Below are positions 23,358 through 38,396 of a DNA stretch of 40,333 nt, in pieces; the stretch's first letter is position 1, and each line of letters begins with the position of its first letter. The stretch is taken from positions 1 through 40,333 of IMG/VR virus record IMGVR_UViG_3300005512_000096. One strand, 5' to 3'. Position numbers and translations under genes: made by a program. The notes under the pieces are model-generated. The model worked only from the letters and a program-made list of their open reading frames with translations, was not told where the DNA came from and made no database searches. Source of the stretch: a virus. Lineage: Duplodnaviria; Caudoviricetes.

Positions 23358-23414
23358 TACGGTGTAACGCAAAGGGCTGGTTACCCTTTGTTGTTTCCTT
23401 TGGTTGGTTGGGAG

Positions 23415-23449: not shown

Positions 23450-23464
23450 ATCTGCATTTTTTTG

Positions 23465-23493
23465 TTGACAGGTGTTTTTGTTTCCGATATTGG
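23465..23493 (+). promoter_or_regulatory. Sigma70-type early promoter
   Basis: T-tract, then TTGACA-N17-TATTGG. Confidence 0.6.
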
Positions 23494-23523
23494 TTACTAA
23501 TCAACAGCCGATGGAGAAATGAA

Positions 23524-23805
23524 ATGGCTAAGAAACTGGAAAACATGACTACTGATGAACGTATTGCCCACTGGGAAAAGGAACGTGCAAAGCAAAAACT
23601 AGAACGTGCCAAGATATTCGAGTCCCTGCCTTTGGATATGAAAAACACAATTATCGATTTATTAAATGCAGTTGACCCTGTTATAGAAACTGCTTTATAT
23701 GAAGGTGGGGTCAGGTATCTATCAGCTTTTGATTTGCAACACCTTAGAGATGAGGCAGAAACATCACGCAGAATTTTAGGCTTGGAGAAGCATCATGGCT
23801 ACTAA
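23524..23805 (+). CDS. Early hypothetical protein
   Basis: GGAG RBS before MAKKLEN; the track's upstream extension runs through a terminator and promoter. Confidence 0.75.
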   Translation: MAKKLENMTTDERIAHWEKERAKQKLERAKIFESLPLDMKNTIIDLLNAVDPVIETALYEGGVRYLSAFDLQHLRDEAETSRRILGLEKHHGY

Positions 23806-24049
23806 ACTAACCCCCGCAGAATATGCAGCCAAACACACAGAGATATTTGCTCGTATGTCTGCAAACTTTCTAGCCACCCCTTTGCCCAGTGACTGGGATA
23901 CTTGGGAAGAAGAAAAGCTAGATAACTTCCTTAGTGACAACCACTGGCAACCGTTCGAGTATTGGGATGTCAACGATGTCTATGAGTTGATTGACCAGCT
24001 AACGATTGACGTTATGAACCTGATGGGATTGGAGAGAGGCGATGAGTAA
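23795..24049 (+). CDS. Early hypothetical protein
   Basis: GGAG RBS, overlapping chain of small ORFs. Confidence 0.75.
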   Translation: MATKLTPAEYAAKHTEIFARMSANFLATPLPSDWDTWEEEKLDNFLSDNHWQPFEYWDVNDVYELIDQLTIDVMNLMGLERGDE

Positions 24050-24248
24050 TCGTGGCGACTACAAAGTCAGAGTTCGCATGACAACCGAACGTGAGGTAAT
24101 TGTCAACGCGGATGGTTTCGATGAGGCAGAAGCAAAAGCCTTGAGAGAGGCAGTAGCCCTAGTCGATGGGTACGATGCCGAAGTTCTTTGGGCGTTGGAG
24201 CATGGAAGCCTTAGTGATTGGGAGAAGAGTAATGTCAACAGTAACTAA
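24042..24248 (+). CDS. Early hypothetical protein
   Basis: GAGG RBS; YKVRV...VIVNADGFDEAEAKA. Confidence 0.75.
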   Translation: MSNRGDYKVRVRMTTEREVIVNADGFDEAEAKALREAVALVDGYDAEVLWALEHGSLSDWEKSNVNSN

Positions 24249-24558
24249 AACCTGTCTTGCTTGTGATGGTGGCGGCATTGCCGAATATGACAAACCGGTC
24301 ACAGACTTTGCGAACGGTGGCTGGATAGATAGCACCTATGGTAAGTGTGATGTTTGTGATGGGGAAGGTGACCTACACGTTCTATCTGAATTTACCAGCT
24401 TGGATATCTTGGCGTTCTTGCATGAGGCAGCTACAATTCTAGAAAATGCAGACATAGTTGACAGCACGTTAGATAATATGTACGGTCACATCAGAGACGC
24501 AAAAGATATGATGCGTGAATATATCAAATTTCATGGTTACGATGGAGACGATAGATGA
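24232..24558 (+). CDS. Early protein with DnaJ-type zinc finger
   Basis: CLACDGGG and CDVCDGEG; GGAG RBS before MSTVTK. Confidence 0.75.
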   Translation: MSTVTKTCLACDGGGIAEYDKPVTDFANGGWIDSTYGKCDVCDGEGDLHVLSEFTSLDILAFLHEAATILENADIVDSTLDNMYGHIRDAKDMMREYIKFHGYDGDDR

Positions 24559-24758
24559 AACCGATGAGCCAACCAAAAATAGTCGACTTTGAGTTTACGC
24601 TAGACAATATCATATGCGTAAAAGCACCAGAAGGCACAAACCCTGACACACTACTTGATGCAGCCCGTAAAGAGTTACTAGGGTTGATTGATGATAACCG
24701 TGAATATTTTATTTTTCATGGTACATGGGATGCTGAAGACGATGGAGACAACCGATGA
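24555..24758 (+). CDS. Early hypothetical protein
   Basis: GGAG RBS, ATGA overlap. Confidence 0.7.
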   Translation: MKPMSQPKIVDFEFTLDNIICVKAPEGTNPDTLLDAARKELLGLIDDNREYFIFHGTWDAEDDGDNR

Positions 24759-24973
24759 ACCAACCAAAATTTGACCCCGACAAAGCATACACAGTAGGTG
24801 TATGGGATATGCCTATGTATGTGTATGACCACGATGAGGATGACTATGTGCGTAATGAAGATGGCACTGTTGCCCTGTTCAATCTTCCTCACTACGACTA
24901 TTCATATATTGGTGATGACGCTGATGTAGACACACTTGAGTTGCGTGATAAAGGAGATGATTACGATGGCTAA
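24755..24973 (+). CDS. Early acidic hypothetical protein
   Basis: GGAG RBS, ATGA overlap. Confidence 0.7.
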   Translation: MNQPKFDPDKAYTVGVWDMPMYVYDHDEDDYVRNEDGTVALFNLPHYDYSYIGDDADVDTLELRDKGDDYDG

Positions 24974-25169
24974 ACAAACCAAACTTTGGATAGAATTAAC
25001 GCCCACAGAAGCTAACGCCCTGATGGTAATGCTAGACAGCGAAATGGATAACAGATTTTACTACAGCAGTGTCGATCTGGATAACTGGGAAAACCTAGAC
25101 TTAGAAGCCTACAAGTTTCTGGCGTTTCACAAATTCAAAACGTGGTACATGGAGAATTTCGATGGGTAA
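24966..25169 (+). CDS. Early hypothetical protein
   Basis: AAGGAG RBS before MAKQTK. Confidence 0.7.
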   Translation: MAKQTKLWIELTPTEANALMVMLDSEMDNRFYYSSVDLDNWENLDLEAYKFLAFHKFKTWYMENFDG

Positions 25170-25365
25170 GGTCAAGGCTTGGGCAATGCAACTAGAAGAA
25201 GACTTTTGGTATCTTGCCAATAGTAAGATAGGCAACTGCGAGTTCTTTGGAGAGTTCATGCAAGAGATGGAACCGCACCGCGATTTCTTGGGCTTGCATA
25301 GCGACAGAGAATATGCTGATATGTTGCGTGAAGCTTGGGACAACTACTGGAGTAAGTACATATGA
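25162..25365 (+). CDS. Early hypothetical protein
   Basis: GGAG RBS; MGKVKAWAM N-terminus. Confidence 0.75.
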   Translation: MGKVKAWAMQLEEDFWYLANSKIGNCEFFGEFMQEMEPHRDFLGLHSDREYADMLREAWDNYWSKYI

Positions 25366-25562
25366 GCAGCACAATTGAACCACGATATCCCAACGCGGCA
25401 AGTGATCCGCGCCTAATTAATGTCAATGACGAACGAAAGCGGCTCAGAGAAATTGTCACTGAAAAAGAATGGCAAGGTAAAAACGCTGATGCAGAAAAAT
25501 GTCAGATACAAATATTGTCAGCCGCATTACAAGAAGGCCGATCCTACTACCCTGCATTTTAG
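25362..25562 (+). CDS. Early hypothetical protein
   Basis: GGAG RBS, ATGA overlap. Confidence 0.65.
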   Translation: MSSTIEPRYPNAASDPRLINVNDERKRLREIVTEKEWQGKNADAEKCQIQILSAALQEGRSYYPAF

Positions 25563-25574
25563 TCAGCGGAGATT

Positions 25575-25772
25575 TTGTCAATGAATAATGTCAGCCTAAA
25601 TATTGTCAACCGTATAGAAAAGAAAACTACCTTAAATCCAGACTACCGGTGCGACACTTGCGGGGAACCAGCAATGGTCAAAGAAGATGGTTTTCTTTCC
25701 TGCCCTAAATGTTATCTAAAAAAACAAGGGCAGCGAATTTTACCGCTTGACCATGCCGGATTTTATCCGTAA
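25575..25772 (+). CDS. Small zinc-finger protein
   Basis: CDTC...CPKC; GGAG RBS; start could be 25581. Confidence 0.65.
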   Translation: MSMNNVSLNIVNRIEKKTTLNPDYRCDTCGEPAMVKEDGFLSCPKCYLKKQGQRILPLDHAGFYP

Positions 25773-25775
25773 GGT
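25747..25775 (+). promoter_or_regulatory. Sigma70-type early promoter
   Basis: TTGACC-N17-TAAGGT. Confidence 0.6.
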
Positions 25776-25811
25776 TTCCAAACTAACTAACCAACATAAG
25801 GAAACCGACCT

Positions 25812-26498
25812 ATGAAAAAGGCAGATATAAACAAGCCAGCTAATACAATGTATCCCAAATCCGTTAAACTGCTGGCGGATTATTCGCACAAGGTTTTAAA
25901 GCAATCTAAAAATGCGAAGCTTTCAAAAGATAAGTTACCTACAATTAAAAAAGGCAAGTTTGCCGGTTATGTTATCTATACCCTGACACTAGAAGAACGT
26001 GCCACCTGTCCGCGTTCGTGCTATCATTGGGATAATTGCTATGGTAATAATATGATGTTTGCGCACCGGCTGCAGCATGGCAGCGAATTAGAGCAGCGCA
26101 TAAAAAATGAGATAGAAGAACTATGCGCCACCTATAAAGGCGTGATTGTCCGGTTGCACGTTCTGGGGGATTTCTATTCTGTCGATTATGTAGAATTGTG
26201 GCAGCATCTATTATCTAAATTTGATAACTTGGCGGTTTGGGGCTTTACCGGCTATGCGCCAAACAGCGATATCGGGCTTGCTATTCGTGCGGTTCAAGGC
26301 GGGTTTCGCGACCGTTTTTCTGTCCGGTTTAGCAACGCACCCGATTGGCAATTCAGCGCGAATAGTGCCGACCTGTACAAACCGACCAAAGGAAAATCTA
26401 TTGTTTGTCCCGAACAAACCGGCGCGGCGGAATCGTGCGCGACCTGTACCTTGTGTTGGTCAGCACCGGATAAACAAATCTTGTTTGTTACACATTAG
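25812..26498 (+). CDS. Gp88-like Cys-rich protein (possible Fe-S/radical-SAM-like fold)
   Basis: TCPRSCYHWDNCYG, RLHVLGDFYS, WGFT, CPEQ...CATCTLCW. Confidence 0.7.
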   Translation: MKKADINKPANTMYPKSVKLLADYSHKVLKQSKNAKLSKDKLPTIKKGKFAGYVIYTLTLEERATCPRSCYHWDNCYGNNMMFAHRLQHGSELEQRIKNEIEELCATYKGVIVRLHVLGDFYSVDYVELWQHLLSKFDNLAVWGFTGYAPNSDIGLAIRAVQGGFRDRFSVRFSNAPDWQFSANSADLYKPTKGKSIVCPEQTGAAESCATCTLCWSAPDKQILFVTH

Positions 26499-26648
26499 GA
26501 AATATTGTCAGGCCATGCTTAAAACCAACGAATTTTGTCAGCCCATGCCTAAAAAGTTTAGTTGGGCTATCTTGCCGGTTTGGTTGTTGGTTACCACTGG
26601 CGGAGATAGCAGCGGGCAAGTTGAGCAGCGGGGCTTGTCCAAATGGGG

Positions 26649-26680
26649 CGGGGCGGGATCGATTTCCCGCCTCGTTTTTT
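26649..26680 (+). terminator. Rho-independent terminator
   Basis: CGGGGCGGGA-tcgatt-TCCCGCCTCG followed by TTTTTT. Confidence 0.85.
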
Positions 26681-26695
26681 ATCTAACTTTTCTTG

Positions 26696-26725
26696 TTGAC
26701 CGATCCGGCGGGGCTATGGCATAAA
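26696..26725 (+). promoter_or_regulatory. Candidate sigma70-type promoter
   Basis: TTGACC-N18-CATAAA directly after the terminator. Confidence 0.5.
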
Positions 26726-26784
26726 CAAATCAAGGCCGGTTGCAAAGACTGTGCCAATAACCAAACCGAAAGGAACTTTTAACC

Positions 26785-27786
26785 ATGTTCGATTTAATAC
26801 AAACAAAAGCAGTCGAGAACGCACGACCAAAAGGCGATGACATTTTTAGTGTTCATAATGACGTGAATGATTGCAGCCTTTACCATGAATTCGCCAGCTT
26901 CGAGCCGGTGCCGGTGGAAGCGGTCACCACTGACCCGAATGGCATTGTTGATATGCAGCGCATGAAATACCACGCTTTGCAAAATACCCGCACAAATCGG
27001 GTTGTTGATGTGGTGCCATTCAATCGTGCGACCTATAACCTGACCCCCCACGATGCTTTGATGCGGGAACAGGCCGACATATTGAACGAATCCGGGCTTC
27101 GGGGTTATTTGGGCAATGTTGAAGTTTGCGACCGGATATATCAAGAGGGTTTGCGTGTTCACCGGACAATCTATTTTCACGACCTAGTTGACCTCAGCCG
27201 GACGAGAACAGGCCAAGAGGATGTGAGCCGGTGCCGTTTGGATATCTTCAATAGTGTCGATAAGAGTTGGACGCTGCAGGTATTCAGCGGGGCTTATCGT
27301 GACTTGTGCCGCAATACGTTGGTTTTTGGTGGTGAGAAGGCATATCACCAGAAGGCAAAACACACTATTAATATGAGCAGCGGCGCACTGATCACCAAAG
27401 GCGTTTTGGGGCTTGAAATGTGGGATAATCAGCGGGAAACGATGCAAGCGTACCGCGAGATCGGCATGACCGAAAAGCAGTTTAATGACGTTTTGATTGA
27501 TTCCGGCATGATCGACAAGGTTGGAAAGGTTGCCGCGAACAACGACGAATTGAAGGTAAACCAACGCAAGCTTGGAACGTTGCTTGACTTGTACGGGAAA
27601 GAAACCCGCGAGTTAGGTCATACAATGTGGGCGGCATTTAATGCCCTTACCCATTGGTCAACGCATCTGCCCGATGCCAAGAAAGGCGGCAGGGATGAAA
27701 AGAAACGTTTGGATAAATCCCTTGCGGTTCGAAACCTTGTCCAGTCTGACGCATGGCTCAATCATGCAGGAATGGTAGCGGCATAA
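26785..27786 (+). CDS. DUF932-family protein
   Basis: IFNSVDKSWTL...GAYRDLCRNTL, HT, TMWAAFNALTHWSTH; AAAGGAA RBS. Confidence 0.8.
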   Translation: MFDLIQTKAVENARPKGDDIFSVHNDVNDCSLYHEFASFEPVPVEAVTTDPNGIVDMQRMKYHALQNTRTNRVVDVVPFNRATYNLTPHDALMREQADILNESGLRGYLGNVEVCDRIYQEGLRVHRTIYFHDLVDLSRTRTGQEDVSRCRLDIFNSVDKSWTLQVFSGAYRDLCRNTLVFGGEKAYHQKAKHTINMSSGALITKGVLGLEMWDNQRETMQAYREIGMTEKQFNDVLIDSGMIDKVGKVAANNDELKVNQRKLGTLLDLYGKETRELGHTMWAAFNALTHWSTHLPDAKKGGRDEKKRLDKSLAVRNLVQSDAWLNHAGMVAA

Positions 27787-27787
27787 C

Positions 27788-27865
27788 ATGGGCGAGTTTA
27801 TAGCGAATGCTTACAAGGTAGTCTGGATCATCTTCCTTGTGCTTGCAATTTTAATGATCCTATAA
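27788..27865 (+). CDS. Putative 25-aa single-pass membrane peptide
   Basis: MGEFIANAYKVVWIIFLVLAILMIL fills the gap between the DUF932 stop and the next leader. Confidence 0.55.
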   Translation: MGEFIANAYKVVWIIFLVLAILMIL

Positions 27866-27888
27866 AACCAACGAAAGGAACTAAACCG

Positions 27889-28299
27889 ATGACTAAATTA
27901 CCAACAAACCTAATCACTGAATTTGCAACCCTTACCGACCGCATGGAACAGGCTATTCGTGACGATGAGCGGGCATCCGTTTTGCGAGAGATCAACGAAC
28001 GCCAGCAGGCAGCAGCGCAGCGGTTTCTTGCGGCTATCTTTGCGGATCGCAACGGCGAAAAGACTGTAGGCCAGCGCGGCAAAGATCGGCGCGGGTTCCG
28101 TCCGAATTCATCACTGGGGCGGGTGTATCGTTGCCTTGCTGGACGTAAACATGGGATCAATAAAAAGACCCTTGTCCGTGAAACCGGTATGAGCGATAAG
28201 GCGGTAGAAGTAGCGATCTACAAGCTTCGGAAACAAGGTTACAAGATCGAGTGTACCCGCATAGGATACGTTCGGCCTAAATACCGGCTTGCCAGCTAG
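27889..28299 (+). CDS. Winged-HTH DNA-binding protein
   Basis: C-terminal INKKTLVRETGMSDKAVEVAIYKLRKQGYKI...YRL; AAAGGAA RBS. Confidence 0.75.
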   Translation: MTKLPTNLITEFATLTDRMEQAIRDDERASVLREINERQQAAAQRFLAAIFADRNGEKTVGQRGKDRRGFRPNSSLGRVYRCLAGRKHGINKKTLVRETGMSDKAVEVAIYKLRKQGYKIECTRIGYVRPKYRLAS

Positions 28300-28317
28300 T
28301 CCGGCAGCGGCTATAAC
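28289..28317 (+). promoter_or_regulatory. Sigma70-type early promoter
   Basis: TTGCCA-N17-TATAAC, followed by a GC-rich 5' hairpin (28321-28346). Confidence 0.65.
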
Positions 28318-28374
28318 ATTGGGGCGGGGCGATGTTGTCCCGTCCTACGAAACCAACGAAAAGGAACTAAACCG

Positions 28375-28620
28375 ATGATGCAATCAACTTTAAAAATCAA
28401 CGCTGATCAATTCGATGATGATGCAAAGAAAATGATCGTTCTTACCACCAGCGAGGCAGCGGTAATCTTAGCGTCCATTGAAGCATTACAACAACAAGCC
28501 GAAACCTTAAAGGCCATTGTTAAATCTTGCGGGTTTGATGGCTATACCTATGCAACCAATAACGTGCGTACTGTAGCTAAACTGGGCTTGACCATTAAAC
28601 AGGGCGAAACCGACGCATAA
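28375..28620 (+). CDS. Early hypothetical protein (81 aa)
   Basis: AAAGGAA RBS; leader nearly identical to that of 27889. Confidence 0.75.
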   Translation: MMQSTLKINADQFDDDAKKMIVLTTSEAAVILASIEALQQQAETLKAIVKSCGFDGYTYATNNVRTVAKLGLTIKQGETDA

Positions 28621-28683: not shown

Positions 28684-29072
28684 GGGATAACCCCTAGTAA
28701 ATATCTTTGCGGGTTGTTATTGCGGGATATTTCGGGCGGGGGTTGTGCGTGGGATTGTTAGGAATATTGCAGGGGATATCCGAATTATAAAGTTTTTCAT
28801 ACCCGAAACAATGTCCGGCGGGATTTTAAAAAAGGCAATGCGGCGCGGTATATAGTGGGAAAACAGGCGGGATCTTTTCGGCGGGTTGCGTATCGGTGGG
28901 CATCCTTGGGCTTGGCAATGGGGATGACCCTTTGGGGGTTGGTAAGGGCCACCGGGGGGGTACCGGTACCTGTATGCAATGTCGCCAGCAATTTTACCCT
29001 CGAGGGTTATCGATATGGGAATAAAACCGACGTGTTGGGGACCCCCATTGGGATAGCCCCCGTGAGCTAGAC

Positions 29073-29270: not shown

Positions 29271-29299
29271 TTGACTTACATAGATCTAGGGGCTATACT
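29271..29299 (+). promoter_or_regulatory. Near-consensus sigma70 promoter for the packaging/head operon
   Basis: TTGACT-N17-TATACT with AT-rich upstream sequence. Confidence 0.8.
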
Positions 29300-29414: not shown

Positions 29415-29690
29415 ATGCTCTACGAAGCAGCAATCCTTGTCTGCCTGTCGGTTTCGCCCGACACGTGCCACGAACTCAACGATACGAGGGGTCCCTACGA
29501 AACAAAGGAAGCCTGTAAGGCTCGTGTAGACGAGATGGCATCCTTCGTAACCCAAGCAAACCTCTTCGAACTCAATATTCGGTGGAAATGTGCGTCGGTT
29601 TCGGAAAAAAACGATGAATCTGTTACCCCAAACACACAAAAAAAGGGAATTAACACCTCAACAGGAACAATTCCTCGAGTTGCTATTTGA
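29415..29690 (+). CDS. Small Cys-containing hypothetical protein
   Basis: AGGA RBS; hydrophobic N-terminus; GPYETKEAC motif. Confidence 0.7.
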   Translation: MLYEAAILVCLSVSPDTCHELNDTRGPYETKEACKARVDEMASFVTQANLFELNIRWKCASVSEKNDESVTPNTQKKGINTSTGTIPRVAI

Positions 29691-30015
29691 AAACGGTGGT
29701 CAGGTCACCGCTGCAGCCCTCGATGCAGGCTACTCACGTGGTTCAGCAGCGTGGCTCAAGTCTACCTTATCCGATGAAATCATAGAACGCACCAAGCAGG
29801 TCCTTGCAACCAACGCATTAAAGGCTGCTAACCGTGTAATTTCAACGATAGACAACCCCGCCCCAGAACGTGGAGACGATCTTCGTCTCAAAGCTGCCGA
29901 ATCGCTCCTCAACCGCGTCGGTGTAGCTAAACAAGAACAAATCAACCACAACGTAACCGCCGTTCACGGCGTAGTCCTGTTACCCCCCAAAAAAGAGGTC
30001 GTGATCGATGGCTAA
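29614..30015 (+). CDS. terS: Terminase small subunit
   Basis: LTPQQEQFL...VTAAALDAGYS N-terminal HTH; upstream of TerL; start moved to MNLLPQ. Confidence 0.8.
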   Translation: MNLLPQTHKKRELTPQQEQFLELLFENGGQVTAAALDAGYSRGSAAWLKSTLSDEIIERTKQVLATNALKAANRVISTIDNPAPERGDDLRLKAAESLLNRVGVAKQEQINHNVTAVHGVVLLPPKKEVVIDG

Positions 30016-30217
30016 CGACAAAGAAATTCGTACCGACGGTCGTACAGACAAAGAAATCCGCATCATTGCAATGGAAAACATAAGCAACCTGACAGACAAG
30101 CAGTTGGATAGGTGGCAGAACGAAATTAGTAAAAACGTGTACGGCAGAAAGAAACTGGCTGGCGGTGGCAAAGCCTGTCGTGGACGCTCCGCACAAGGAA
30201 GTGCAGAAAAAAACTAA
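30008..30217 (+). CDS. Small basic hypothetical protein
   Basis: GAGG RBS; overlaps both neighbours; LAGGGK motif. Confidence 0.7.
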   Translation: MANDKEIRTDGRTDKEIRIIAMENISNLTDKQLDRWQNEISKNVYGRKKLAGGGKACRGRSAQGSAEKN

Positions 30218-31914
30218 TGTCGGAAGACATCACCCCTAAAAAGAAAGCGGGTCGACCCCCGAAGGATCCCAACGCACCCAAAGCAACGTACCAGCTATCC
30301 ACTGCTGAACGTGCTCGTCGTGCTGCACAGAAAAGATTACGAACTGCAAAGAAGAAAGCAGCGCAGTCAACAAAGAAAGCTGAAGACCAGAGAAGTTACG
30401 CCCGTGAACTGGAGAAGACAATTGGAAAAGTCGAAAAGGCAATCTCTGGAAAGGGAAGCGCAGTTGTCGACATGGGAGATCTCGCCGTTCTACCCGGACC
30501 CGTTTCAGAACTCGTCGGAGATTCTGAAGTTGTCTTTCAGCCGAACGAAGGCCCTCAAGAGGAGTTTCTTTCGGCAAGCGAACAAGACGTTCTTTACGGC
30601 GGAGCCGCTGGTGGTGGCAAGTCGTTTGCTCTACTTGCTGATCCCTTACGCTATTGTCACAATCCCAATCATCGAGGTCTTCTTCTCCGGCGCACACTCG
30701 ACGAACTAACAGAACTCATAGATAAATCACGCCAACTCTACACGAAGGCGTTTCCCGGAGCCAAGTTTCGCGAATCAAAATCCACGTGGGTGTTCCCATC
30801 GGGTGCAACCATCTGGTTTACCTATCTCGACAGAGACAAGGACGTTACCCGTTTTCAAGGACAGGCGTTCAACTGGATAGGCATCGACGAAATAACTCAA
30901 TACCCTACGCCGTACGTGTGGGACTACCTACGTTCCCGCTTACGCTCTACCGATCCCGAATTACAAAAGAATCTATATATGCGTTGTACAGCCAACCCCG
31001 GCGGTGTCGGTGGCTGGTGGGTAAAAAAGATGTACATCGATTCTCGTACAGAGAACGAAGCCTTTCCTGCATACGACATAGATACGATGAAGCCGTTTGT
31101 GTGGCCTCAAGGGCACGAAAAGGCAGGTCAGCCGTTGTTCTACCGCAAGTTTGTACCGGCACGGTTGACAGATAATCCCCACCTCATGGCAGACGGTCAA
31201 TACGAAGCCATGTTGAGATCGCTCCCAGAAGTCGAGCGGAAGAGGCTTCTCGAAGGGGATTGGGATGTGGCAGAGGGAGCGGCCTTCCCTGAATTCTCAC
31301 GGAGTAGACACGTTGTCGAACCTTTCGATTTACCTACCAATTGGCCTCGCATTCGAGCAGCGGACTACGGCTACGCCAGCCCGTCGTGCGTTCTTTGGGG
31401 GGCTATTGACTGGGATAACAATATCTGGGTTTATCGTGAGTTGTATGCAAAACACTTGACAGCAGAGCAATTAGCCGATAAAATATTAGAAGCAGAGCAG
31501 CTTGATCCGTTACCTCACTACACCGTACTCGATTCTTCCTGCTGGAATAAGACAGGCTTTGGGCCGTCTATTGCGGAAGTTATGATGAGGCAAGGTGTTC
31601 GCTGGACTCCTTCAGATCGCAACCGCATTCAAGGAAAGATGGAAGTTCACCGCCGCTTGGGTGACGATCCGTACACAGAAGAACCCCGCCTCAGAATATT
31701 CTCCAACTGCCAGCACATTATCAAGCAGCTTGCTGGTATCCCTCTTTCAAAAACCAACAGCGAAGACGTAGATACGAAGGCAGAAGATCACGCATACGAT
31801 GCCCTTCGTTACATGGTAATGACCCGCATGAGCGGCTACGCATCTATTCACACACAGTTAGGCGCAATCAAGAACCACGTCTATAAGGTTCAAGACGAAG
31901 TATTTGGATACTAA
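30217..31914 (+). CDS. terL: Terminase large subunit
   Basis: Walker A GGAAGGGKS, Walker B IGIDE, coupling motif TANP, nuclease ADYG and DHAYDALRY. Confidence 0.95.
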   Translation: MSEDITPKKKAGRPPKDPNAPKATYQLSTAERARRAAQKRLRTAKKKAAQSTKKAEDQRSYARELEKTIGKVEKAISGKGSAVVDMGDLAVLPGPVSELVGDSEVVFQPNEGPQEEFLSASEQDVLYGGAAGGGKSFALLADPLRYCHNPNHRGLLLRRTLDELTELIDKSRQLYTKAFPGAKFRESKSTWVFPSGATIWFTYLDRDKDVTRFQGQAFNWIGIDEITQYPTPYVWDYLRSRLRSTDPELQKNLYMRCTANPGGVGGWWVKKMYIDSRTENEAFPAYDIDTMKPFVWPQGHEKAGQPLFYRKFVPARLTDNPHLMADGQYEAMLRSLPEVERKRLLEGDWDVAEGAAFPEFSRSRHVVEPFDLPTNWPRIRAADYGYASPSCVLWGAIDWDNNIWVYRELYAKHLTAEQLADKILEAEQLDPLPHYTVLDSSCWNKTGFGPSIAEVMMRQGVRWTPSDRNRIQGKMEVHRRLGDDPYTEEPRLRIFSNCQHIIKQLAGIPLSKTNSEDVDTKAEDHAYDALRYMVMTRMSGYASIHTQLGAIKNHVYKVQDEVFGY

Positions 31915-31917
31915 CCT

Positions 31918-33900
31918 ATGGCTGAACTAACCAAACAAGAAAAAACCGTTGTCGATTCGTTTCTCAATATGCAACGGGCTTTGTTTCCTGACGGCGACAT
32001 TCCGTCCCTAGAAGAAGTACGCGCACGAATTGATTCCGGTAATCAAACTGTTGGTGATGCGTTCATTGCAAAGATGTACAACGACGGCGTACCTGACGAG
32101 CCTATTCTTGCTGAACTAGATGAAACAAAAGATTTCTACAGCAAGTTCGAAAAGACATTTTCACGTGAAGTCGTAGGTCCGGCTCGTAACACAACCGGCA
32201 TAAGCAACAACATTACAAAACTGGAGAAGGGCGGAATCGACTTGGGTTCGTCCTTTTCTGATTTTGAAGCACAATCTAAAGTGCCCGGAAGTGGTATCAG
32301 TGAAGATGTTCGTAAAAATATCGTCCGCCCGTTCAAGACTGCATCCGATAACGTATTAGAATTGAAGCTATCGCGCACAGGAGCCTCTAAGGGCACCCGT
32401 AAGCTTGCGAAGGGTGCTATACCTGCTGAAGTGCTTCAATCGGTCTTACAGGGCATTGGTGACATTCCTGACCCTATTACACGCGATGCAGTAATGGCAT
32501 CTTTGTTGGGTTATCGTGGAGAAGACCTATCTAACATGCGTACAACCCGTGCGCTTGCCACACGGTCCAAACCAGTTCGTCCATTCTACGATAGAGAAGC
32601 TGGCGTTGCTCGTGACCCCGAAGTAGCTACAGGCGGTGGTCGCAAGGCAAAAGGTCCTGACAAGCCTGCAGGTCCCGTTCTCCGTGAAATCTTAAATCGT
32701 CGTTACGATGCTGCTGGCCCTACAGGTGAACTCTTTCCAGATATGAGTACGGGAAAGATCAGCGCAGCCCTCAAAAAACACGTCTTTCCAAAAATTCCAC
32801 AAAACGTACAAGACCGACTCCTGACTAGGCCGTCTGGTTACACCGATCTCCGTCGTATCACTGCTTCTGCCATTGCTAACCAACTTGGTCGCCCTGATCT
32901 TGCAAGTGAAATCATCAGCCACAAAGGCTCTGGTGAAAGTTTACTTGACAAAGTTATGACTGGATACTATACTGATGTAGAAGATATCAGTGGCTTACAG
33001 CAACGTGGTGAAATCTTAGTAGCTTACGAAAAGATGATGGCAGATGCCGTTGGTGCCACAGATGCAAAAGGATTAGGCGAGGCCCTTCGCTTAGACTTAT
33101 CTCCAGAGTTCAACGCACAATACCCTGAAGTAGACGCGATGGCAACTCCGTCGCAAGCACCGGTTCAGCCTACACAGGCAACTCCAGAACAAATTGCACA
33201 GGGCGAAGCGTTTCGTGCAGCAAAGACTGCAGAGGCAACAGCTACAGCAGAACTCTCCGCACAAGAGAAAGCTGCAGCAGCCGAAGAAAAGATGATGCAA
33301 CGGGCAGCACGTGCCCCGGAGATTGCCGAAGCAGAACGCAAACTTGCAGAAGCCAAAGCCGGATCGAAGAAGGTAGCGCAAGTCGCATCAGGAGAATCCT
33401 TCTTACAGAAGGCTCTCAAGATGGCAAAGCCACTCAAAGTCTTTGCAGGACCGCTGGGTGTCGGTATGGCTGCTATCGCTGCAGAACAAACTCGTAGCGC
33501 AGTCACTCAGCAAGCAGAAGCACTAGGGCTTCCTAGTTCGGTAGCGGGTCCAATTGGAACTGCAGCAGGTGCTACAGAGTTTCTTCCGGTTGCTCCTAGC
33601 GATGTTATCGCAGCGGGACAGTCTATGGCATCTCCTGTTGCAGATCCCGGTTCAGCCCGTCCTATTGAACGGATGATGGCAGATCAACCGGAACTCTTTC
33701 GACGCAGTGAACCTGCCGCTCCTAGCGTAGACACCGTAGTTCCGGCAGCACAGCCACAGATGACACAACCGGTACGTGTACCAGATGCCGTACAAAACGT
33801 ACCTACTTCTTTTCTTTCTAATCCAGAAAGATTACGCCAAGCGAGAGGGGCCGCTCGTTCTGGTGAAGATGCAACCGGCTTCATTTCCTACACACCATAA
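31918..33900 (+). CDS. Protein with central tyrosine recombinase catalytic domain and Ala/Pro-rich C-terminal extension (660 aa)
   Basis: LLGYRGEDLSNM, RKAKG, ELFP, YTDLRRITASAIA, EIISHK, VMTGYY in the canonical order. Confidence 0.8.
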   Translation: MAELTKQEKTVVDSFLNMQRALFPDGDIPSLEEVRARIDSGNQTVGDAFIAKMYNDGVPDEPILAELDETKDFYSKFEKTFSREVVGPARNTTGISNNITKLEKGGIDLGSSFSDFEAQSKVPGSGISEDVRKNIVRPFKTASDNVLELKLSRTGASKGTRKLAKGAIPAEVLQSVLQGIGDIPDPITRDAVMASLLGYRGEDLSNMRTTRALATRSKPVRPFYDREAGVARDPEVATGGGRKAKGPDKPAGPVLREILNRRYDAAGPTGELFPDMSTGKISAALKKHVFPKIPQNVQDRLLTRPSGYTDLRRITASAIANQLGRPDLASEIISHKGSGESLLDKVMTGYYTDVEDISGLQQRGEILVAYEKMMADAVGATDAKGLGEALRLDLSPEFNAQYPEVDAMATPSQAPVQPTQATPEQIAQGEAFRAAKTAEATATAELSAQEKAAAAEEKMMQRAARAPEIAEAERKLAEAKAGSKKVAQVASGESFLQKALKMAKPLKVFAGPLGVGMAAIAAEQTRSAVTQQAEALGLPSSVAGPIGTAAGATEFLPVAPSDVIAAGQSMASPVADPGSARPIERMMADQPELFRRSEPAAPSVDTVVPAAQPQMTQPVRVPDAVQNVPTSFLSNPERLRQARGAARSGEDATGFISYTP

Positions 33901-33916: not shown

Positions 33917-34126
33917 ATGAACATGAACATGGGTCCAGCTTATATCATGGCAAGCGACAAAACTAGCGTTGACGACATGATGGGCTGCAACAAACTGTAT
34001 CGGGAAGGTCTTGAGTTCGACACCAAAGCAAAACAAGGTGTACTTACCGAAGACATGCCTAAGAAAATGACAAAGAAAGCAGTCGATCCTTCAGTAATGA
34101 AAATGGCTGAAGAACGCGACTATTAA
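33917..34126 (+). CDS. Small hypothetical protein
   Basis: GGGAG RBS; directly before the portal. Confidence 0.75.
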   Translation: MNMNMGPAYIMASDKTSVDDMMGCNKLYREGLEFDTKAKQGVLTEDMPKKMTKKAVDPSVMKMAEERDY

Positions 34127-34135: not shown

Positions 34136-36238
34136 ATGTCTGATAATTTTCTACAACCCCCTGACGATGATCAGGTTGTAGTCGTTGATCCTGATGAAAA
34201 CATGCCGGGTCTTGCCGGTTACGTTCGTCGTAAGTTTGAAGATTCTGAAAACGGTCGGTATGCTTACGAGCAACGCTGGCTAAAAGCATTTAAAAACTTT
34301 CGTGGTATTTACGACTCTACAACTAAGTATCGTGAAACTGAACGTTCGAAGGTATTTATCAAGATTACCAAAACAAAAGTCTTGGCTGCTTATGGGCAGA
34401 TCATTGATATTTTGTTTGCGAATAAAAAGTTTCCGTTAGTTATCGAACCAACTCCCGTCCCTGAAGGAATCGCGGAGTTTGCTCATTTAAAGACACCTCT
34501 AGATGAGATTATCGACCCTTACGGTTATGAAGGGGATGGTAGAGAATTAAAACCCGGTGCAACAGAAGCCACTCCCAATGGAGATTTTCTTGGCGGGTTA
34601 AAAAATAGATATGCCGGTGCTCCTATAGCGGAAGGTCCATCTCTTGCAGGTGAACCTCAAATTTCTCCGGCGCAAAAAGCTGCTTTAAATATGGAAAAGC
34701 AAATTCACGATCAGCTTCTCGATACTAGCGCAGTAAACGTATTTCGTAGTGCAGTCTTTGAAGCTGCACTTTTAGGAACAGGCATAGTAAAAGGGCCGTT
34801 TAACTTTTACAAGCGTATCAATCGTTGGGAAAGAAATGATCAAGGTGATCGTACATACAATCCTTACGAAAAAACTGTTCCTCGCATAGAGCACGTTTCA
34901 GTCTGGGACTTTCATCCTGATCCATCTGCAACTAACATCGAAGACTGTGAATACGTGATTCAACGCCACAGAATGAATCGTCAACAGCTACGTGCTTTGA
35001 TTAATCATCCTTATTTTTACGCGGATGCAATTGAAGATGCAATTGCTAAAGGATCGAACTACACCGACAAGTACTACGAAGATACTATTCGGGAAGACGA
35101 GACAGAAGCTTACTATCAAGAAAATCGTTTTGAGGTTCTTGAATACTGGGGCGTTTTGGATGCTAAGTTTGCTAACGAAGTTGGCATGGATGTTCCTAGT
35201 AGCATGGGACCAATGGATCAAGTACAAGTTAACGTGTGGGTTTGCGGAGAAGAAATTCTTCGTTGCGTTTTAAATCCGTTTACACCTGCTCGTATTCCAT
35301 ACCAAGTATTTCCGTACGAAATCAACCCCTATCAGATGTGGGGTGTTGGCGTAGCAGAGAACATGGAAGATGCTCAGATGCTGATGAACGGTCACGTTCG
35401 GATGGCAATCGACAACCTCGCTCTTGCCGGTAACTTGGTGTTCGATGTAGACGAAGCAAGCTTGGTTCCCGGACAGAATATGGATATCTTCCCCGGAAAG
35501 ATATTCCGCCGTCAGTCTGGAGTAACAGGAACAGCAGTTAACGGACTAAAGTTTCCTAACACCGCACCTGAAAACATTCAGATGTATCAGATCAGTCGTC
35601 AACTTGCAGACGAAGAGACGGGCCTTCCATCGATCATGCACGGTCAAACAGGCGTAGCTGGAACGGGCCGAACAGCATCTGGACTATCCATGCTTCTTGG
35701 TGGTGCAAGTCTGTCGCTCAAGACTGTAATTAAGAACATAGATGATGCTCTGCTGAAACCGTTGGGTGAGGCGTATTTCCAGTGGAACATGCAGTTCAAT
35801 GAGGACGCTCCCGATATCGAAGGTGACCTAGAGATCAAACCTCGTGGCGTAGCTGCAGTTATGCAGAAAGAAGTCCGCAGCCAAAGACTTACAACCCTGT
35901 TGCAAACTGTGTCTAATCCTATGCTGGCACCGTTTATTAAGATACCAAATCTGATGCGTGAACTTGCTATCGCACAAGATATCGATCCAGATAGCTTGGT
36001 AAACGATGTAAACGAAGCACAGATTTTTTCAGAGATGTTGAAAGGATTGGCACAAAATGCTCAACAAGGAACAGGCCCGGAAGGTCAGCAGCCTAGTAAC
36101 CAACAAGGAAGCATGGAACAGTCTGGAGACGTACCTGCAGGAGCAAATCCAGATGACGCTTCAGGCGTTGGTGGGGGCCAGATCGGAACTGGAAGTGTTC
36201 CGTCTGCAGGGGAAGATAACTTCACTGGAAATGCTTAA
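34136..36238 (+). CDS. Portal protein (700 aa)
   Basis: Size and position between TerL and scaffold/MCP; GTGIVK, DFHPDP, WGVGVAE, TASGLSML motifs of podovirus portals. Confidence 0.9.
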   Translation: MSDNFLQPPDDDQVVVVDPDENMPGLAGYVRRKFEDSENGRYAYEQRWLKAFKNFRGIYDSTTKYRETERSKVFIKITKTKVLAAYGQIIDILFANKKFPLVIEPTPVPEGIAEFAHLKTPLDEIIDPYGYEGDGRELKPGATEATPNGDFLGGLKNRYAGAPIAEGPSLAGEPQISPAQKAALNMEKQIHDQLLDTSAVNVFRSAVFEAALLGTGIVKGPFNFYKRINRWERNDQGDRTYNPYEKTVPRIEHVSVWDFHPDPSATNIEDCEYVIQRHRMNRQQLRALINHPYFYADAIEDAIAKGSNYTDKYYEDTIREDETEAYYQENRFEVLEYWGVLDAKFANEVGMDVPSSMGPMDQVQVNVWVCGEEILRCVLNPFTPARIPYQVFPYEINPYQMWGVGVAENMEDAQMLMNGHVRMAIDNLALAGNLVFDVDEASLVPGQNMDIFPGKIFRRQSGVTGTAVNGLKFPNTAPENIQMYQISRQLADEETGLPSIMHGQTGVAGTGRTASGLSMLLGGASLSLKTVIKNIDDALLKPLGEAYFQWNMQFNEDAPDIEGDLEIKPRGVAAVMQKEVRSQRLTTLLQTVSNPMLAPFIKIPNLMRELAIAQDIDPDSLVNDVNEAQIFSEMLKGLAQNAQQGTGPEGQQPSNQQGSMEQSGDVPAGANPDDASGVGGGQIGTGSVPSAGEDNFTGNA

Positions 36239-36287: not shown

Positions 36288-38396
36288 ATGGTTGCGTATT
36301 ATAATGTATTGGGGTTGCAAAACTATCGTGAACCTACATACAGTACAAATATATCGTACGCAGGTAGACCTACGCCACAAGCATACGCTCCCTATCCCAT
36401 TTACGGTATAGGCACTGGTAGGGCTTCGGCAACAGGCAATGTTGGTACAACTATTTCAATAGAGGGTGCTGGCGGAGATGAGCCGGGTGGCGGTCCTGAT
36501 ACAACAGACGGTGGTATAAACTTTGAATCTGATAGTTTTTTAGGAACTATTAACGATTACGCAGCAGAACAGGTAGAGTCCTTTTTTGGATTTCCTACGG
36601 AAATTAACCAACTGACCGGTACGATGAGAGCAACCGGAATACCTGATGTGCTTGCAGCAATGATGCCAATGCACATGTCGGCTCTCGTGTCGCTAGGTGC
36701 TGCAATTAGTCAAGAAAACCTTGAAAATATTTTTGAGAGCCAGAAAGCTGGAAAAAAAGGGTACGGAGTAGCCACGCTAGACGGTAGAATTCTTGGCGTT
36801 TCTCCTAACGCAATATCTACAGCTTTTGGTATGAGTCCTACGGATGCTGGGGTTTTGTCTGGTACCATACCTGACGCTCCCCCCGGAATAAGCCAATCAG
36901 CGTATGAAGCTGCAATTATAGATGCGCTTCAAAACGTACAATCTGTCCCCGGAAGACCAGCTATTAGCGGAATAGGACCGCCTACCCCCGCTACAATCGG
37001 AGATATAACTGCGGCAGTCAATCAGGCAGTATATGGTTCTCCTGCTGGTCCAGATGCCCTCGCTAATACTACGGGAATGGTATTTGGCTACACTGCAAAT
37101 CCTTTTGGTAAACCGGGGATGATGAAAACTCCCATAATGACAAAGGAAGACTTGCCTGTTACTAAGGAAGGCTTTAAGAGTAGCGACTTGGGTTTTGATC
37201 CAAGCTTTGGTTACGATCCGTACGACGATACTAATCCCCCTCAAGACACCGCATTTTTTGATGACGAATTAGATGTGACACCGGAGGTGGCATCAGATAT
37301 AAGCGGCGATGAGCCTGAAAGCGGTCCAGACAGTGCTGATCCGGGCGGCGGAACAGATTGGGCAACTGGCGGACGCATTGGTATGCAAAACGGCGGCACA
37401 GCTATTACCGAAGGTTTCGTCAACAAAGATCCGTCTACAGTACCTGACGACATGTCTATCGCTGACAACCGCTACACCTCAGTCAAAGCCGGTTCGTTTG
37501 TAGTCAATCAACCAGCAAATGAAAAAAACAAAAAGATGCTGGATAAGGTTGTAGGCGAAGCAACCAAACGAACCAAGATGAAAAAGGGCGGCAAGACAAG
37601 CATGGTAGACGTTGCGCTGTCCGACGGTGAACGCCTAATCGAACCAGAAGTCGTAGCAACCATCGAAAAGAAGTACGGCAAAAATTTCTTAGACAAGATT
37701 AACGACGAAGGCAAGCCCGAAGTCAAACGTCGTCAAGCCAAGTACGGCGAAAAGATTGGCGCAGCACAGGGCGGCGGCTTCTTGGCTGATCAAGGTATGG
37801 AACTTGGTGACGTAGGTGAAGACATCGACATGGAAGAGTACCTTCCTGTATCTGACGAACTGAAGGCAAAGCTATCCAAATTTGCAAGCCGTAAGCCACA
37901 ACGCGGACAGATCAAACAGTTCATTAGAAGCTTATCCCCAGAAGACAAGTTAACTGTGTTGTTCTTGACTGAAACCCAGTCTACGACCGATCCTATCGAA
38001 AGCATGGAAGCAATCGGGGAAGTAGTTAAAAATCGTATGAATTCTGACTACTATGATTTTAAAAATCTAAAAACTCTAGACGATGTTCTATTAAAACAAA
38101 TTGCAAAAAACAAGTCGTTTCAGTTTTCAGGTTTAGAGCCAACCACTTTTTACGATAGAGCAGTTGAGGTAAAAAAGGGTCTTGCAGATAAGGGTCTTGC
38201 AAAAGCTGCAGCAGCGGCACAAAATGTCCTTGATCCTGAAACGGAAGGCGTACAGCGACTTCCAGCGAATACATTATTTTATACACGTAAAGACGCTCCT
38301 AGCCAGTGGATGCGTGAATCAAAAAAATTAGAGTTTTCTACGGAACTGGGCGGACATGAGTTTTACCGCACGTTCGCAGCACCAGAATTTCCGTAA
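36288..38396 (+). CDS. Putative virion protein with C-terminal SleB/Hydrolase_2-like cell wall hydrolase domain
   Basis: LTE...MEAIGEVVKNRM...FQFS...LFY...W...GGHEFY pattern. Confidence 0.75.
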   Translation: MVAYYNVLGLQNYREPTYSTNISYAGRPTPQAYAPYPIYGIGTGRASATGNVGTTISIEGAGGDEPGGGPDTTDGGINFESDSFLGTINDYAAEQVESFFGFPTEINQLTGTMRATGIPDVLAAMMPMHMSALVSLGAAISQENLENIFESQKAGKKGYGVATLDGRILGVSPNAISTAFGMSPTDAGVLSGTIPDAPPGISQSAYEAAIIDALQNVQSVPGRPAISGIGPPTPATIGDITAAVNQAVYGSPAGPDALANTTGMVFGYTANPFGKPGMMKTPIMTKEDLPVTKEGFKSSDLGFDPSFGYDPYDDTNPPQDTAFFDDELDVTPEVASDISGDEPESGPDSADPGGGTDWATGGRIGMQNGGTAITEGFVNKDPSTVPDDMSIADNRYTSVKAGSFVVNQPANEKNKKMLDKVVGEATKRTKMKKGGKTSMVDVALSDGERLIEPEVVATIEKKYGKNFLDKINDEGKPEVKRRQAKYGEKIGAAQGGGFLADQGMELGDVGEDIDMEEYLPVSDELKAKLSKFASRKPQRGQIKQFIRSLSPEDKLTVLFLTETQSTTDPIESMEAIGEVVKNRMNSDYYDFKNLKTLDDVLLKQIAKNKSFQFSGLEPTTFYDRAVEVKKGLADKGLAKAAAAAQNVLDPETEGVQRLPANTLFYTRKDAPSQWMRESKKLEFSTELGGHEFYRTFAAPEFP

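What the first reader, a model, noticed from the sequence alone, without database searches (positions are those of the whole stretch)
31918..33900. Tyrosine recombinase domain in a virion-like protein between terminase and portal
About 32420-32980 encodes the catalytic set in order: R (GYRGEDL), K (RKAK), LFP, a variant HxxR box with His replaced (YTDLRR), H (IISHK) and Y (MTGYY). The gene starts 3 nt after terL, so it should be expressed late. It has no neighbouring repressor, excisionase or visible att/tRNA site. Its 300-aa Ala/Pro-rich tail with SFL/GFI motifs resembles the internal virion proteins. Hypothesis: a late or capsid-packaged recombinase that circularises the incoming genome (compare P1 Cre), resolves concatemers, or acts as a telomere resolvase or topoisomerase IB-like enzyme during packaging.
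Basis: partly seen in the sequence, partly recalled or inferred. Interest (0 to 1): 0.82.

Follow-up and report, generated by a model that had tools for sequence, protein, structure and literature searches.

The report
Hypervariable phage recombinase with hidden promoter
A group of marine phages always keeps one integrase-like DNA cut-and-rejoin gene between its DNA-packaging and portal genes, swaps it among dozens of unrelated versions, and has a predicted promoter for it hidden in the gene upstream; it is likely a weapon aimed at host or rival-phage DNA rather than an ordinary integrase.

Summary
ORF 31918-33900 has a tyrosine-recombinase fold (XerA Z 13.5); R200, R312 and Y351 are invariant in 104 of 104 homologues.

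First, the slot is hypervariable: all 128 distinct terL-to-portal loci hold one intact 519-806-aa gene, forming 36 allele families, and 40 of 95 pairs with portals at least 95% identical carry heads under 30% alike. Second, a sigma-70-like promoter lies inside terL in 119 of 119 loci and not at that place in 12 relatives lacking the gene, so 'late' is unproven.

The C-terminal SFL motif is real and shared with the portal N-terminus and a 190-aa protein. No att site, prophage, lox-like site or second integrase was found.

The scan noted this slot before on three other genomes. One note's claim that a palindrome 3 kb upstream is the target failed here: that element follows portal, not the recombinase.

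Best reading (0.4): a conflict-driven, likely capsid-loaded nicking enzyme acting on non-self DNA.

The parts
31918..33900 (+). 660-aa gene filling the terL-to-portal slot: N-domain, tyrosine-recombinase catalytic domain, modular tail
31918..32367 (+). All-helical N-terminal domain (aa 1-150), likely the core-binding (specificity) domain; most variable folded part
   Evidence: model; aligns into the N-part of lambda Int, Tn1549 Int and Cre, and weakly (Z 3.5) to an IntS fragment; variability
32380..33132 (+). Catalytic domain (aa 155-405): R200, D203, K243, T309 (His-II position), R312, H335, Y351
33145..33900 (+). Tail (aa 410-660): Ala/Glu-rich helical part, Gly/Ala hydrophobic stretch from aa 505, Pro-rich linker, SFL (33808-33816) and GFI (33877-33885) motifs; mosaic between alleles
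31456..31484 (+). Sigma-70-like promoter (TTGACA-17-TAAAAT) embedded in terL codons 414-423; predicted to drive the recombinase and possibly the genes after it
30217..31914 (+). Terminase large subunit; fixed upstream border of the slot (stop-to-ATG spacing -1 to +5 nt in 128 of 128 loci)
33917..34126 (+). Conserved 69-aa ORF, fixed downstream border of the slot; does not change with the allele
34136..36238 (+). Portal protein; its N-terminus carries the same short motif (NFL, aa 4-6)
29614..30015 (+). Terminase small subunit
29271..29299 (+). Sigma-70-like promoter upstream of the terS block (a site of 10 of 12 or better in 47 of 47 loci)
28946..28979 (.). Conserved two-state non-coding element, likely the pac region; tested as recombinase target and found to follow the portal lineage instead
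   Evidence: PMC6256558
2525..3097 (+). 190-aa protein of the structural strand whose C-terminus carries the same SFL motif (role inferred, fold unresolved)

Best explanation
This is an intact tyrosine-recombinase-fold gene in a fixed, allele-swapped slot of a marine podophage clade, and it likely works as a polymorphic DNA-cutting effector that is predicted to be transcribed from its own promoter inside terL, likely loaded into the procapsid through its C-terminal motif, and likely aimed at host or rival-phage DNA rather than at a site in its own genome. Shown: the fold, the catalytic set, one full-length copy in every locus, 36 allele families, purifying selection within a family, the embedded promoter sequence, and the tail motif shared with the portal and a 190-aa protein. 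Inferred, step by step: (1) host RNA polymerase transcribes the gene from 31456-31484; (2) the SFL-type motif docks the protein during procapsid assembly and it enters the next cell with the DNA; (3) the N-domain and catalytic domain clamp an allele-specific sequence and Tyr351 forms a 3'-phosphotyrosine nick; (4) with no partner site on the phage genome, the result is nicking or mis-joining of the foreign DNA, which helps host takeover or excludes a co-infecting relative; (5) rare alleles are favoured, and homologous recombination in the conserved flanks (terL end; tail, 69-aa ORF or portal) swaps them.
For: Fold and residues. All 36 families keep both arginines; Lys in 32, Tyr in 34 of 36 (2 alignment gaps), His-II in 0 of 36. 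Thr at His-II should be tolerated: Cre is active with all but five substitutions at H289, and Thr is not among the five (PMC2943603); T, K, Y and A occur there in BJ1, SSV1, pNOB8 and pTN3 integrases (PMC5861418). Always present and whole: 128 of 128 distinct slots. Swapping: 40 of 95 pairs with portal at least 95% identical have heads under 30% alike; relatives about 94-97% identical in terL DNA lose all likeness at the start codon. Selection: median dN/dS 0.05 in the N-domain, 0.06 in the catalytic domain, 0.29 in the tail, for close pairs of the window's family. Promoter: of 161 invariant terL positions in 182 sequences, only L414 TTG, T415 ACA and I423 ATA are fixed at 99% or more; absent at that place in 12 of 12 relatives without the gene; 119 of 119 loci against 0 of 105 control windows. 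Motif: 70 of 88 distinct C-termini against 4.0 in shuffles; 84 of 95 against 2.4 in the 190-aa family, tested after the motif was defined; 48 of 59 portal N-termini. No own target found: no run of fixed codons in five allele types; an identical 63-nt upstream element occurs with unrelated heads.
Against: No call shows activity, expression level, virion content or a target. The motif was defined from these data and its receptor is unknown. The role of the 190-aa protein is inferred from its position only. A strong sigma-70-like promoter fits early intracellular action as well as packaging, and it may serve the whole structural operon; terS also has one, so it does not date expression. Allele families are partly sorted by lineage (site type changes 5-6 times on the recombinase tree against about 14 in shuffles), so a loose fit between enzyme class and pac element is not excluded. 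No immunity gene accompanies the alleles. Diversity could instead come from host sensors detecting a housekeeping enzyme. 52 of the 128 slots were found with the window's own family alignment, so family sizes are biased. Deep branches of the recombinase tree carry long-branch warnings.
Confidence: 0.4

Rival explanations
1. P1-Cre-like genome upkeep: made at once from the internal promoter (or injected), the enzyme circularises the terminally redundant incoming genome or resolves dimers, using the pac-region element or a DNA structure that every allele accepts; allele diversity comes from host surveillance.
For: The gene lies 3 kb from a likely pac element; the relative phiM6 is pac/headful and terminally redundant (PMC6256558). 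It is never missing, has its own promoter, and no other PF00589 match is in 10 genomes, 4 of them at least 90% complete. Site type is non-random on the recombinase tree. The role of P1 Cre is recalled, not from a call.
Against: The element follows portal (1 change in 35), hydrolase (1 in 22) and primase (1 in 12) better than the recombinase (5 in 34 on nearly the same rows as portal). 20 of 33 pairs with sites at least 88% alike have heads under 30% alike. Similar G- or C-tracts occur near the record ends of HTVC103P, phiM6 and HTVC115P, which lack the gene. No lox-like repeat lies in the gene or that region.
Confidence: 0.22
2. Late, packaging-coupled resolvase or topoisomerase-like enzyme (works like baculovirus VLF-1): it processes branched or supercoiled concatemers at the portal without sequence specificity.
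For: Position between terL and portal with -1 to +5 nt spacing in 128 of 128 loci; motif shared with the portal; His-II lost in all 36 families as in TopIB; TopIB matches at Z 10.6 and 10.0; nudivirus VLF-1 among weak fold hits (ranks 19 and 50, E 0.02 and 0.09).
Against: A housekeeping partner of terminase should not be exchanged for heads with no detectable likeness while terL stays 98-100% identical. Close relatives package DNA with terL next to portal or with small genes in the slot. D203 matches the Glu/Asp-I residue that TopIB lacks.
Confidence: 0.15
3. A relocated integrase: each allele integrates the phage at its own host site, and integrase-attP cassettes are swapped as in ordinary temperate phages.
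For: Several alleles match integrase profiles weakly (PF00589 E 2.5e-5 for P0207; phrog_1 in 9 of 17 alleles tested, best E 4e-9). Allele swapping is usual for integration modules (established knowledge). It has its own promoter.
Against: No intergenic room for attP and no constrained site inside five allele types. No tRNA T-arm in 128 genes (this scan had no working positive control). No split locus: 169 of 169 and 161 of 161 close loci, duplicates included, and 46 of 46 metagenome loci are intact. No relative of the window's family in 185,579 genomes; the portal search there gave 7 MAG contigs, one of them 74% alike and 2.9 kb long. A profile of all alleles does not find the HMO-2011 integrase.
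Confidence: 0.1
4. Catalysis is incidental and the protein acts as a DNA-binding regulator or takeover factor, like SPbeta MrpR or phi3T SroF.
For: SroF and MrpR are among the fold matches (Z 9.9 and 8.5); His-II is lost.
Against: Both arginines, the lysine and the nucleophile tyrosine are kept across 36 families.
Confidence: 0.06
5. Telomere resolvase making hairpin ends.
For: Same superfamily; TelA and TelK are listed (Z 7.1 and 5.4); His-II is replaced.
Against: Those matches rank below the integrases. No long palindrome is among the 25 longest inverted repeats of the (incomplete) window. No strand-switch joint is among the joints listed for four runs over 27.5-36.5 kb (9 rows not shown). 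A complete relative assembles with direct repeats.
Confidence: 0.03

Closest known systems
Int/Xer/Cre tyrosine recombinases (XerA 5hxy, lambda Int 1p7d, XerH 5jjv, Tn1549 Int 6emy; Pfam PF00589)
   Same: Catalytic fold (XerA Z 13.5, rmsd 2.8 A over 155 residues), R-D-K-x-R-H-Y order, helical N-domain before it.
   Different: His-II absent in 36 of 36 families; below the Pfam cut-off; 250-aa modular tail; fixed in the packaging operon; no cognate site found; dozens of interchangeable alleles.
HMO-2011-type phage integrase (HMO-2011 gp09; subgroups I and III)
   Same: Same wider phage group (terL 47-58% to its isolates); tyrosine recombinase.
   Different: That gene is 292 aa and lies before primase (PMC9038755 passages). 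This clade has no PF00589 match, and the slot profile does not detect gp09.
Baculovirus/nudivirus VLF-1
   Same: Tyrosine recombinase tied to virion assembly and packaging; a nucleocapsid component (PMC11654684, PMC3649998 passages).
   Different: VLF-1 is a conserved core gene of insect viruses. [quoted passage not shown] Here the gene is hypervariable and virion location is only predicted.
Phage P1 Cre-loxP (role recalled)
   Same: Recombinase gene close to pac and terminase genes, with its own promoter.
   Different: No lox-like site in or near the gene; alleles swap on an unchanged pac-region element.
MuF polymorphic toxins of temperate phages
   Same: Variable enzymatic part fused to a head-related part, encoded in the DNA packaging module and proposed to be delivered by the virion (PMC5576092 abstract).
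   Different: No MuF domain; the variable part is N-terminal and always a tyrosine recombinase; no immunity gene; no sign of lysogeny.
SSV1/pNOB8/pTN3/BJ1 archaeal integrases
   Same: Non-canonical His-II (K, Y, A, T) and often Arg at His/Trp-III, as in these alleles; ESM Atlas top hits are PF16795 clusters (score 0.96).
   Different: SSV-type att lies inside the gene; no such constrained site or split gene was found here.

Membership tests
Tyrosine recombinase superfamily | Catalytic-domain fold | tested here: met
   VIA Z 13.5 (rmsd 2.8, 155 aligned) to XerA; all 21 chains with Z of 8 or more belong to the recombinase/TopIB superfamily. Foldseek agrees in rank but has no hit at E 0.001 or better in PDB.
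Tyrosine recombinase superfamily | Arg-I, Lys, Arg-II, His/Trp-III and Tyr nucleophile | tested here: met
   104, 100, 104, 101, 104 of 104; across 36 families 36, 32, 36, 22 (H or W; R in 11), 34
Tyrosine recombinase superfamily | His-II of HxxR (87% conserved, not essential) | tested here: not met
   Thr here; His in 0 of 36 families. It is the least conserved position and Cre tolerates most changes, so this does not exclude membership.
Tyrosine recombinase superfamily | Glu/Asp-I three residues after Arg-I | tested here: met
   D203 invariant in A1, 59 of 59; varies in other families
Tyrosine recombinase superfamily | N-terminal core-binding domain | tested here: inconclusive
   Helical domain that aligns into the N-parts of lambda Int, Tn1549 Int and Cre at high rmsd; Z 3.5 to an IntS fragment; not folded alone
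Tyrosine recombinase superfamily | 3'-phosphotyrosine cleavage and strand exchange | not testable with these tools
   needs biochemistry
Pfam PF00589 Phage_integrase | Score above the gathering cut-off (27.1 bits) | tested here: not met
   No hit for the window allele; best allele tested 24.6 bits
Temperate-phage integrase (HMO-2011-type) | Position before the replication module | tested here: not met
   Between terL and portal in 128 of 128 slots
Temperate-phage integrase (HMO-2011-type) | attP beside or inside the gene | tested here: not met
   No intergenic room; no run of fixed codons in five allele types, by a method that did detect the terL promoter
Temperate-phage integrase (HMO-2011-type) | Prophage junctions in host genomes | tested here: inconclusive
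   None found, but hosts are thinly sampled and only the window's family and portal were used as probes
Cre/Xer resolvases | lox/dif-like site (two arms, 6-8-nt spacer) that goes with the enzyme | tested here: not met
   One candidate in the window, at 17.6 kb, far from the gene; the upstream element follows portal. The window lacks about 14 kb of the genome.
Protelomerase (TelK/TelA/ResT) | Long palindromic tel site and hairpin ends | tested here: inconclusive
   No long palindrome among the listed repeats and no strand-switch joint listed; window incomplete, contigs only
Type IB topoisomerase | Lys at His-II position and no Glu/Asp-I | tested here: not met
   T309 and D203 in this allele; Lys in 5 of 36 families
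VLF-1-like packaging recombinase | Virion component needed for DNA packaging | not testable with these tools
   No isolate or proteome; only the shared motif
VLF-1-like packaging recombinase | Conserved core gene | tested here: not met
   36 families at 50% identity
MuF polymorphic toxins | MuF domain | tested here: not met
   No Pfam or PHROGs hit for the window protein; one allele's tail has a weak head-morphogenesis match (phrog_2468, E 0.017)
MuF polymorphic toxins | Location in the DNA packaging module with an exchangeable enzyme part | tested here: met

The most novel reading that the evidence does not exclude
A new class of phage conflict system: a virion-delivered polymorphic tyrosine recombinase. 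Dozens of specificity types share one slot, one promoter hidden in the terminase gene and one capsid-loading tag, and each is injected with the genome to nick or rearrange host or rival-phage DNA at its own sequence. It would also reveal a short procapsid-targeting motif used by the portal and internal proteins of an abundant marine phage group, and a natural library of recombinase specificities.
Probability: 0.3. Interest if true: 0.9.

Novelty: new variant of a known kind. Interest (0 to 1): 0.74.

Why it matters
A 2024 structural paper states that tyrosine recombinases have not been implicated in packaging or virion formation outside baculo-like viruses (PMC11654684, passage seen). This is an obligatory, intact one in the packaging operon of a tailed-phage clade that annotation calls hypothetical and that shows no other integrase. 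Whatever its target, an always-present gene that exists as at least 36 interchangeable, individually conserved families points to an unstudied conflict. The embedded promoter and the short tail motif give direct experimental handles, and the allele set is a ready pool of divergent recombinase specificities. It also warns that phages scored as lacking lysogeny-related genes can carry recombinases below profile cut-offs.

Tried and rejected
1. Upstream palindrome as target (lead from e1-10196394). It first looked supported: site type changed 5-6 times on recombinase trees against 14 on terL and terS, shuffled mean about 14.5, 44 typed loci (3 of 47 untyped and 3 duplicates left out). It was rejected once controls were added: portal 1 change in 35, hydrolase 1 in 22, primase 1 in 12; the same portal clade and site carry three unrelated heads (L015/L304/L349; L184/L189/L256); an identical 63-nt site goes with unrelated heads.

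2. att or lox inside the gene: synonymous variation is flat and no fixed-codon run appears in five allele types. The tRNA T-arm scan was empty in 128 genes, but it did not ring on a known attP, so it is weak. ARAGORN found nothing in the window or 14 loci.

3. Prophages: none. Three short upstream ORFs in metagenome loci were two contig edges and one in-frame stop.

4. Sequence searches against solved structures gave nothing for the recombinase, the 190-aa protein or the 287-aa replication-module protein. tblastn of the window allele against 50,697 phage records gave no match.

5. Fold of the 190-aa protein: best Z 5.8, no clear match; ejectosome chains at Z 5.0 and 4.3 are within background. 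ESM Atlas for the tail gave only unnamed viral clusters at 0.83 or less.

6. Complex prediction of major capsid protein with the last 43 residues: no answer, score 0.00; neither support nor evidence against.

7. Runs: four runs held as contigs gave no molecule ends; RNA contigs touch parts of the gene but cannot show transcription.

8. A second promoter-like site inside the gene (32945-32973) is kept in only 25 of 45 contexts and is not used in the argument.

9. Literature. Searches listed no paper on a recombinase in this slot (titles and abstract starts seen only); one search gave nothing usable on P1 Cre. PMC11440229 passages gave no loading motif. I did not open the supplements of PMC9038755, whose orthologue tables may hold this gene as a hypothetical protein.
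Full report
Setting. The window is a 40,333-base virus record, 46% G+C, with terS, terL, portal, scaffold-position gene and major capsid protein on the + strand and a primase-helicase-polymerase-RNR module on the - strand. Its terL is closest to HMO-2011-type and HTVC103P-type marine podophages (47-58% among the top rows). Two near-complete relatives are 52.7 kb (45% G+C) and 53.8 kb (35% G+C), so about 14 kb are missing here. The host is not known; marine alphaproteobacteria are inferred from the relatives. Runs holding parts of the stretch are labelled estuary, salt marsh, marine and freshwater metagenomes; four were laid.

The observation. The gene runs 31918-33900 and starts 3 nt after terL. 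It has no Pfam or PHROGs match. Searches gave 124 and 82 homologues. In a 104-row alignment reaching about 20% identity only R200, R312 and Y351 are invariant; K243 is kept in 100 and H335 in 101 rows; position 309 is Thr in 90 and never His. The model of residues 1-410 (pLDDT 88) matches XerA best (Z 13.5, rmsd 2.8, 155 aligned), then a staphylococcal integrase, XerH and lambda Int (Z 12.2-11.5); TopIB enzymes score 10.6 and 10.0 and protelomerases 7.1 and 5.4. Foldseek ranks the same families first without reaching E 0.001 in PDB; in the viral library two unnamed hits pass and most named ones are integrases. ESM Atlas gives integrase clusters at 0.95-0.96. Loss of His-II need not kill catalysis: it is the least conserved active-site residue (87%) and Cre stays active with all but five substitutions (PMC2943603, passages and Table 1); BJ1, SSV1, pNOB8 and pTN3 integrases have T, K, Y and A there (PMC5861418, passages and Table 1).

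The slot. Fetching loci by the recombinase (79), by terL (best 80 of 599) and by the 69-aa ORF (best 80 of 191) gave 128 distinct terL-to-69-aa intervals, 52 of them from the first search. Every one holds a single ORF of 519-806 aa (one has an added 32-aa ORF). Their first 380 residues fall into 56, 36 or 9 groups at 70, 50 or 30% identity. All 36 representatives align with both arginines; Lys is kept in 32, Tyr in 34 (two gaps), and His-II in none. Several alleles match integrase profiles weakly. Among 114 loci with enough portal, 40 of 95 pairs at least 95% identical in portal have heads under 30% alike. DNA likeness to the window ends within about 25 nt of the start codon for unrelated alleles and resumes in the tail or the 69-aa ORF. 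Close pairs of the window's family show purifying selection (median dN/dS 0.05, 0.06 and 0.29 for N-domain, catalytic domain and tail; 46, 71 and 50 non-independent pairs). Cultured relatives have terL next to portal or small genes there. No PF00589 match lies in 10 genomes of the clade, 4 of them at least 90% complete; this test also misses the slot gene itself.

The promoter. A scan found TTGACA-17-TAAAAT at 31456-31484, inside terL (the overall count of 7 sites equals chance). Conservation makes it stand out. Among 161 invariant amino-acid positions in the terL C-half of 182 distinct sequences, the only codons fixed at 99% or more are L414 TTG, T415 ACA and I423 ATA, which spell the two hexamers; the median for other Leu codons is 47%. 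None of 12 relatives without the gene has it at that place. 119 of 119 loci have a site of 10 of 12 or better within 520 nt of the start codon, 117 at this place and 2 at another, against 0 of 105 control windows further up in terL. Function is predicted, not shown.

The tail. Tails are mosaic and are shared between unrelated heads. A motif [SGN]F[LIMV], which I defined from these ends, lies in the last 25 residues of 70 of 88 distinct C-termini (shuffles 4.0, maximum 10). It then held in two independent sets: 84 of 95 C-termini of the 190-aa family at 2525-3097 (shuffles 2.4), where the Phe is invariant in an unconserved linker, and 48 of 59 portal N-termini (no shuffle run). The HMO-2011 counterpart of the 190-aa protein lacks it. 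A moderately hydrophobic stretch lies about 115 residues from the end (19-residue hydropathy of 1.2 or more in 80 of 128 tails against 6 of 128 heads). I read the motif as a procapsid-docking signal; that is inference.

Looking for a target on the phage. A conserved element lies at 28946-28979, about 660 nt before terS. In phiM6 position 1 is a pac site (PMC6256558, main text read) and a similar tract follows it, so this is likely the pac region. It comes in two states. An earlier scan note proposed it as the target. On 44 typed loci the state changes 5-6 times on recombinase trees against 14 on terL and terS, which seemed to agree. The controls reversed this: 1 change on portal (35 rows), hydrolase (22) and primase (12) trees. 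The element marks two genome backbones between which terS and terL move freely, and unrelated heads sit on the same backbone and site. Inside the gene, no stretch of constrained codons appears in five allele types. No split locus, host junction or prophage was found.

Mechanism. The facts to explain are an enzyme that is always present and whole, conserved within a family, freely exchanged between families, furnished with its own predicted promoter and a motif shared with the portal, and without a detectable own site. An enzyme that needs an allele-specific site on its own genome fails, because no site travels with it. A non-specific packaging enzyme does not predict 36 coexisting families. 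Frequency-dependent conflict does. I commit to a polymorphic effector that nicks or mis-joins host or rival-phage DNA through Tyr351, likely carried in the virion (0.4). Rivals are Cre-like upkeep on a shared element (0.22), VLF-1-like late processing (0.15), relocated integrase (0.1), DNA-binding regulator (0.06) and protelomerase (0.03). Activity, target, timing and virion location are all untested.

Comparison with what is known. [quoted passage not shown] It may work like VLF-1 in being virion-associated (PMC11654684 and PMC3649998, passages) and like MuF toxins in being a polymorphic enzyme of the packaging module (PMC5576092, abstract), without being either. PMC9038755 (passages) reports no lysogeny-related genes in HMO-2011-type subgroups IV-X; I did not test whether this clade is one of them and did not open its supplements. 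Searches listed no description of this slot; the library lacks most subscription journals. P1 Cre's role and gene order are recalled.

Verdict. Real, undescribed in the papers searched, and found before by this scan on three other genomes. New here are the embedded promoter, the independent test of the motif, and the rejection of the palindrome as target. New variant of a known kind; interest 0.74.

Noticed in passing
window 28946-28979 with 29415-31914 and 34136-36238: The likely pac element has two states that follow portal, hydrolase and primase but not the adjacent terS, terL, 91-aa ORF or DUF932: two genome backbones share one terminase pool, and identical TerS occurs with either state. 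Four portal positions (158, 205, 291, 295) separate the states.
   Followed up: partly
L065 about 2920-2945: terL is joined in frame to the recombinase in a 925-aa ORF, with the last part of terL missing; seen once, so a deletion or an assembly error.
   Followed up: partly
window 20082-20663 and 18581-20188 (-): The family A polymerase is split into an exonuclease ORF and an overlapping DnaJ-finger polymerase ORF, also in G001 and G002, whereas HMO-2011 has one gene. Split genes or a frameshift.
   Followed up: partly
window 36288-38396: The cell-wall-hydrolase gene after portal is also highly variable (27-80% to the window where portal is about 72-93%) and carries SFL/NFL/GFL motifs; a possible second variable cargo.
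   Followed up: no
window 22928-28620: The block of small early-type genes (GP88, DUF932, HTH) points away from primase and towards terS, opposite to the HMO-2011 layout; the same orientation in the 7 loci that reach primase, so no sign of inversion.
   Followed up: partly
L381 (recombinase codon about 411): One allele has a single in-frame stop just after the catalytic domain; the only interrupted copy seen.
   Followed up: partly
G002 (L069) and one more locus: The internal promoter lies about 250 nt instead of about 460 nt before the start codon, which suggests it arose twice or moved.
   Followed up: partly
window 32945-32973: A second sigma-70-like site (11 of 12) overlaps the codons up to and across the catalytic Tyr; kept in 25 of 45 contexts of this family.
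   Followed up: partly
window 542-687 and 7728-7860: A 12-nt tandem array in the 610-aa gene and an 81-nt duplication in the 1647-aa gene.
   Followed up: no
window 11087-11425: 112-aa basic protein with five YGG/MGG-type repeats; many recombinase tails end in similar GG motifs.
   Followed up: no
L086:14522-15667 (G002): C5 cytosine methyltransferase in the early region of the 35% G+C relative.
   Followed up: no
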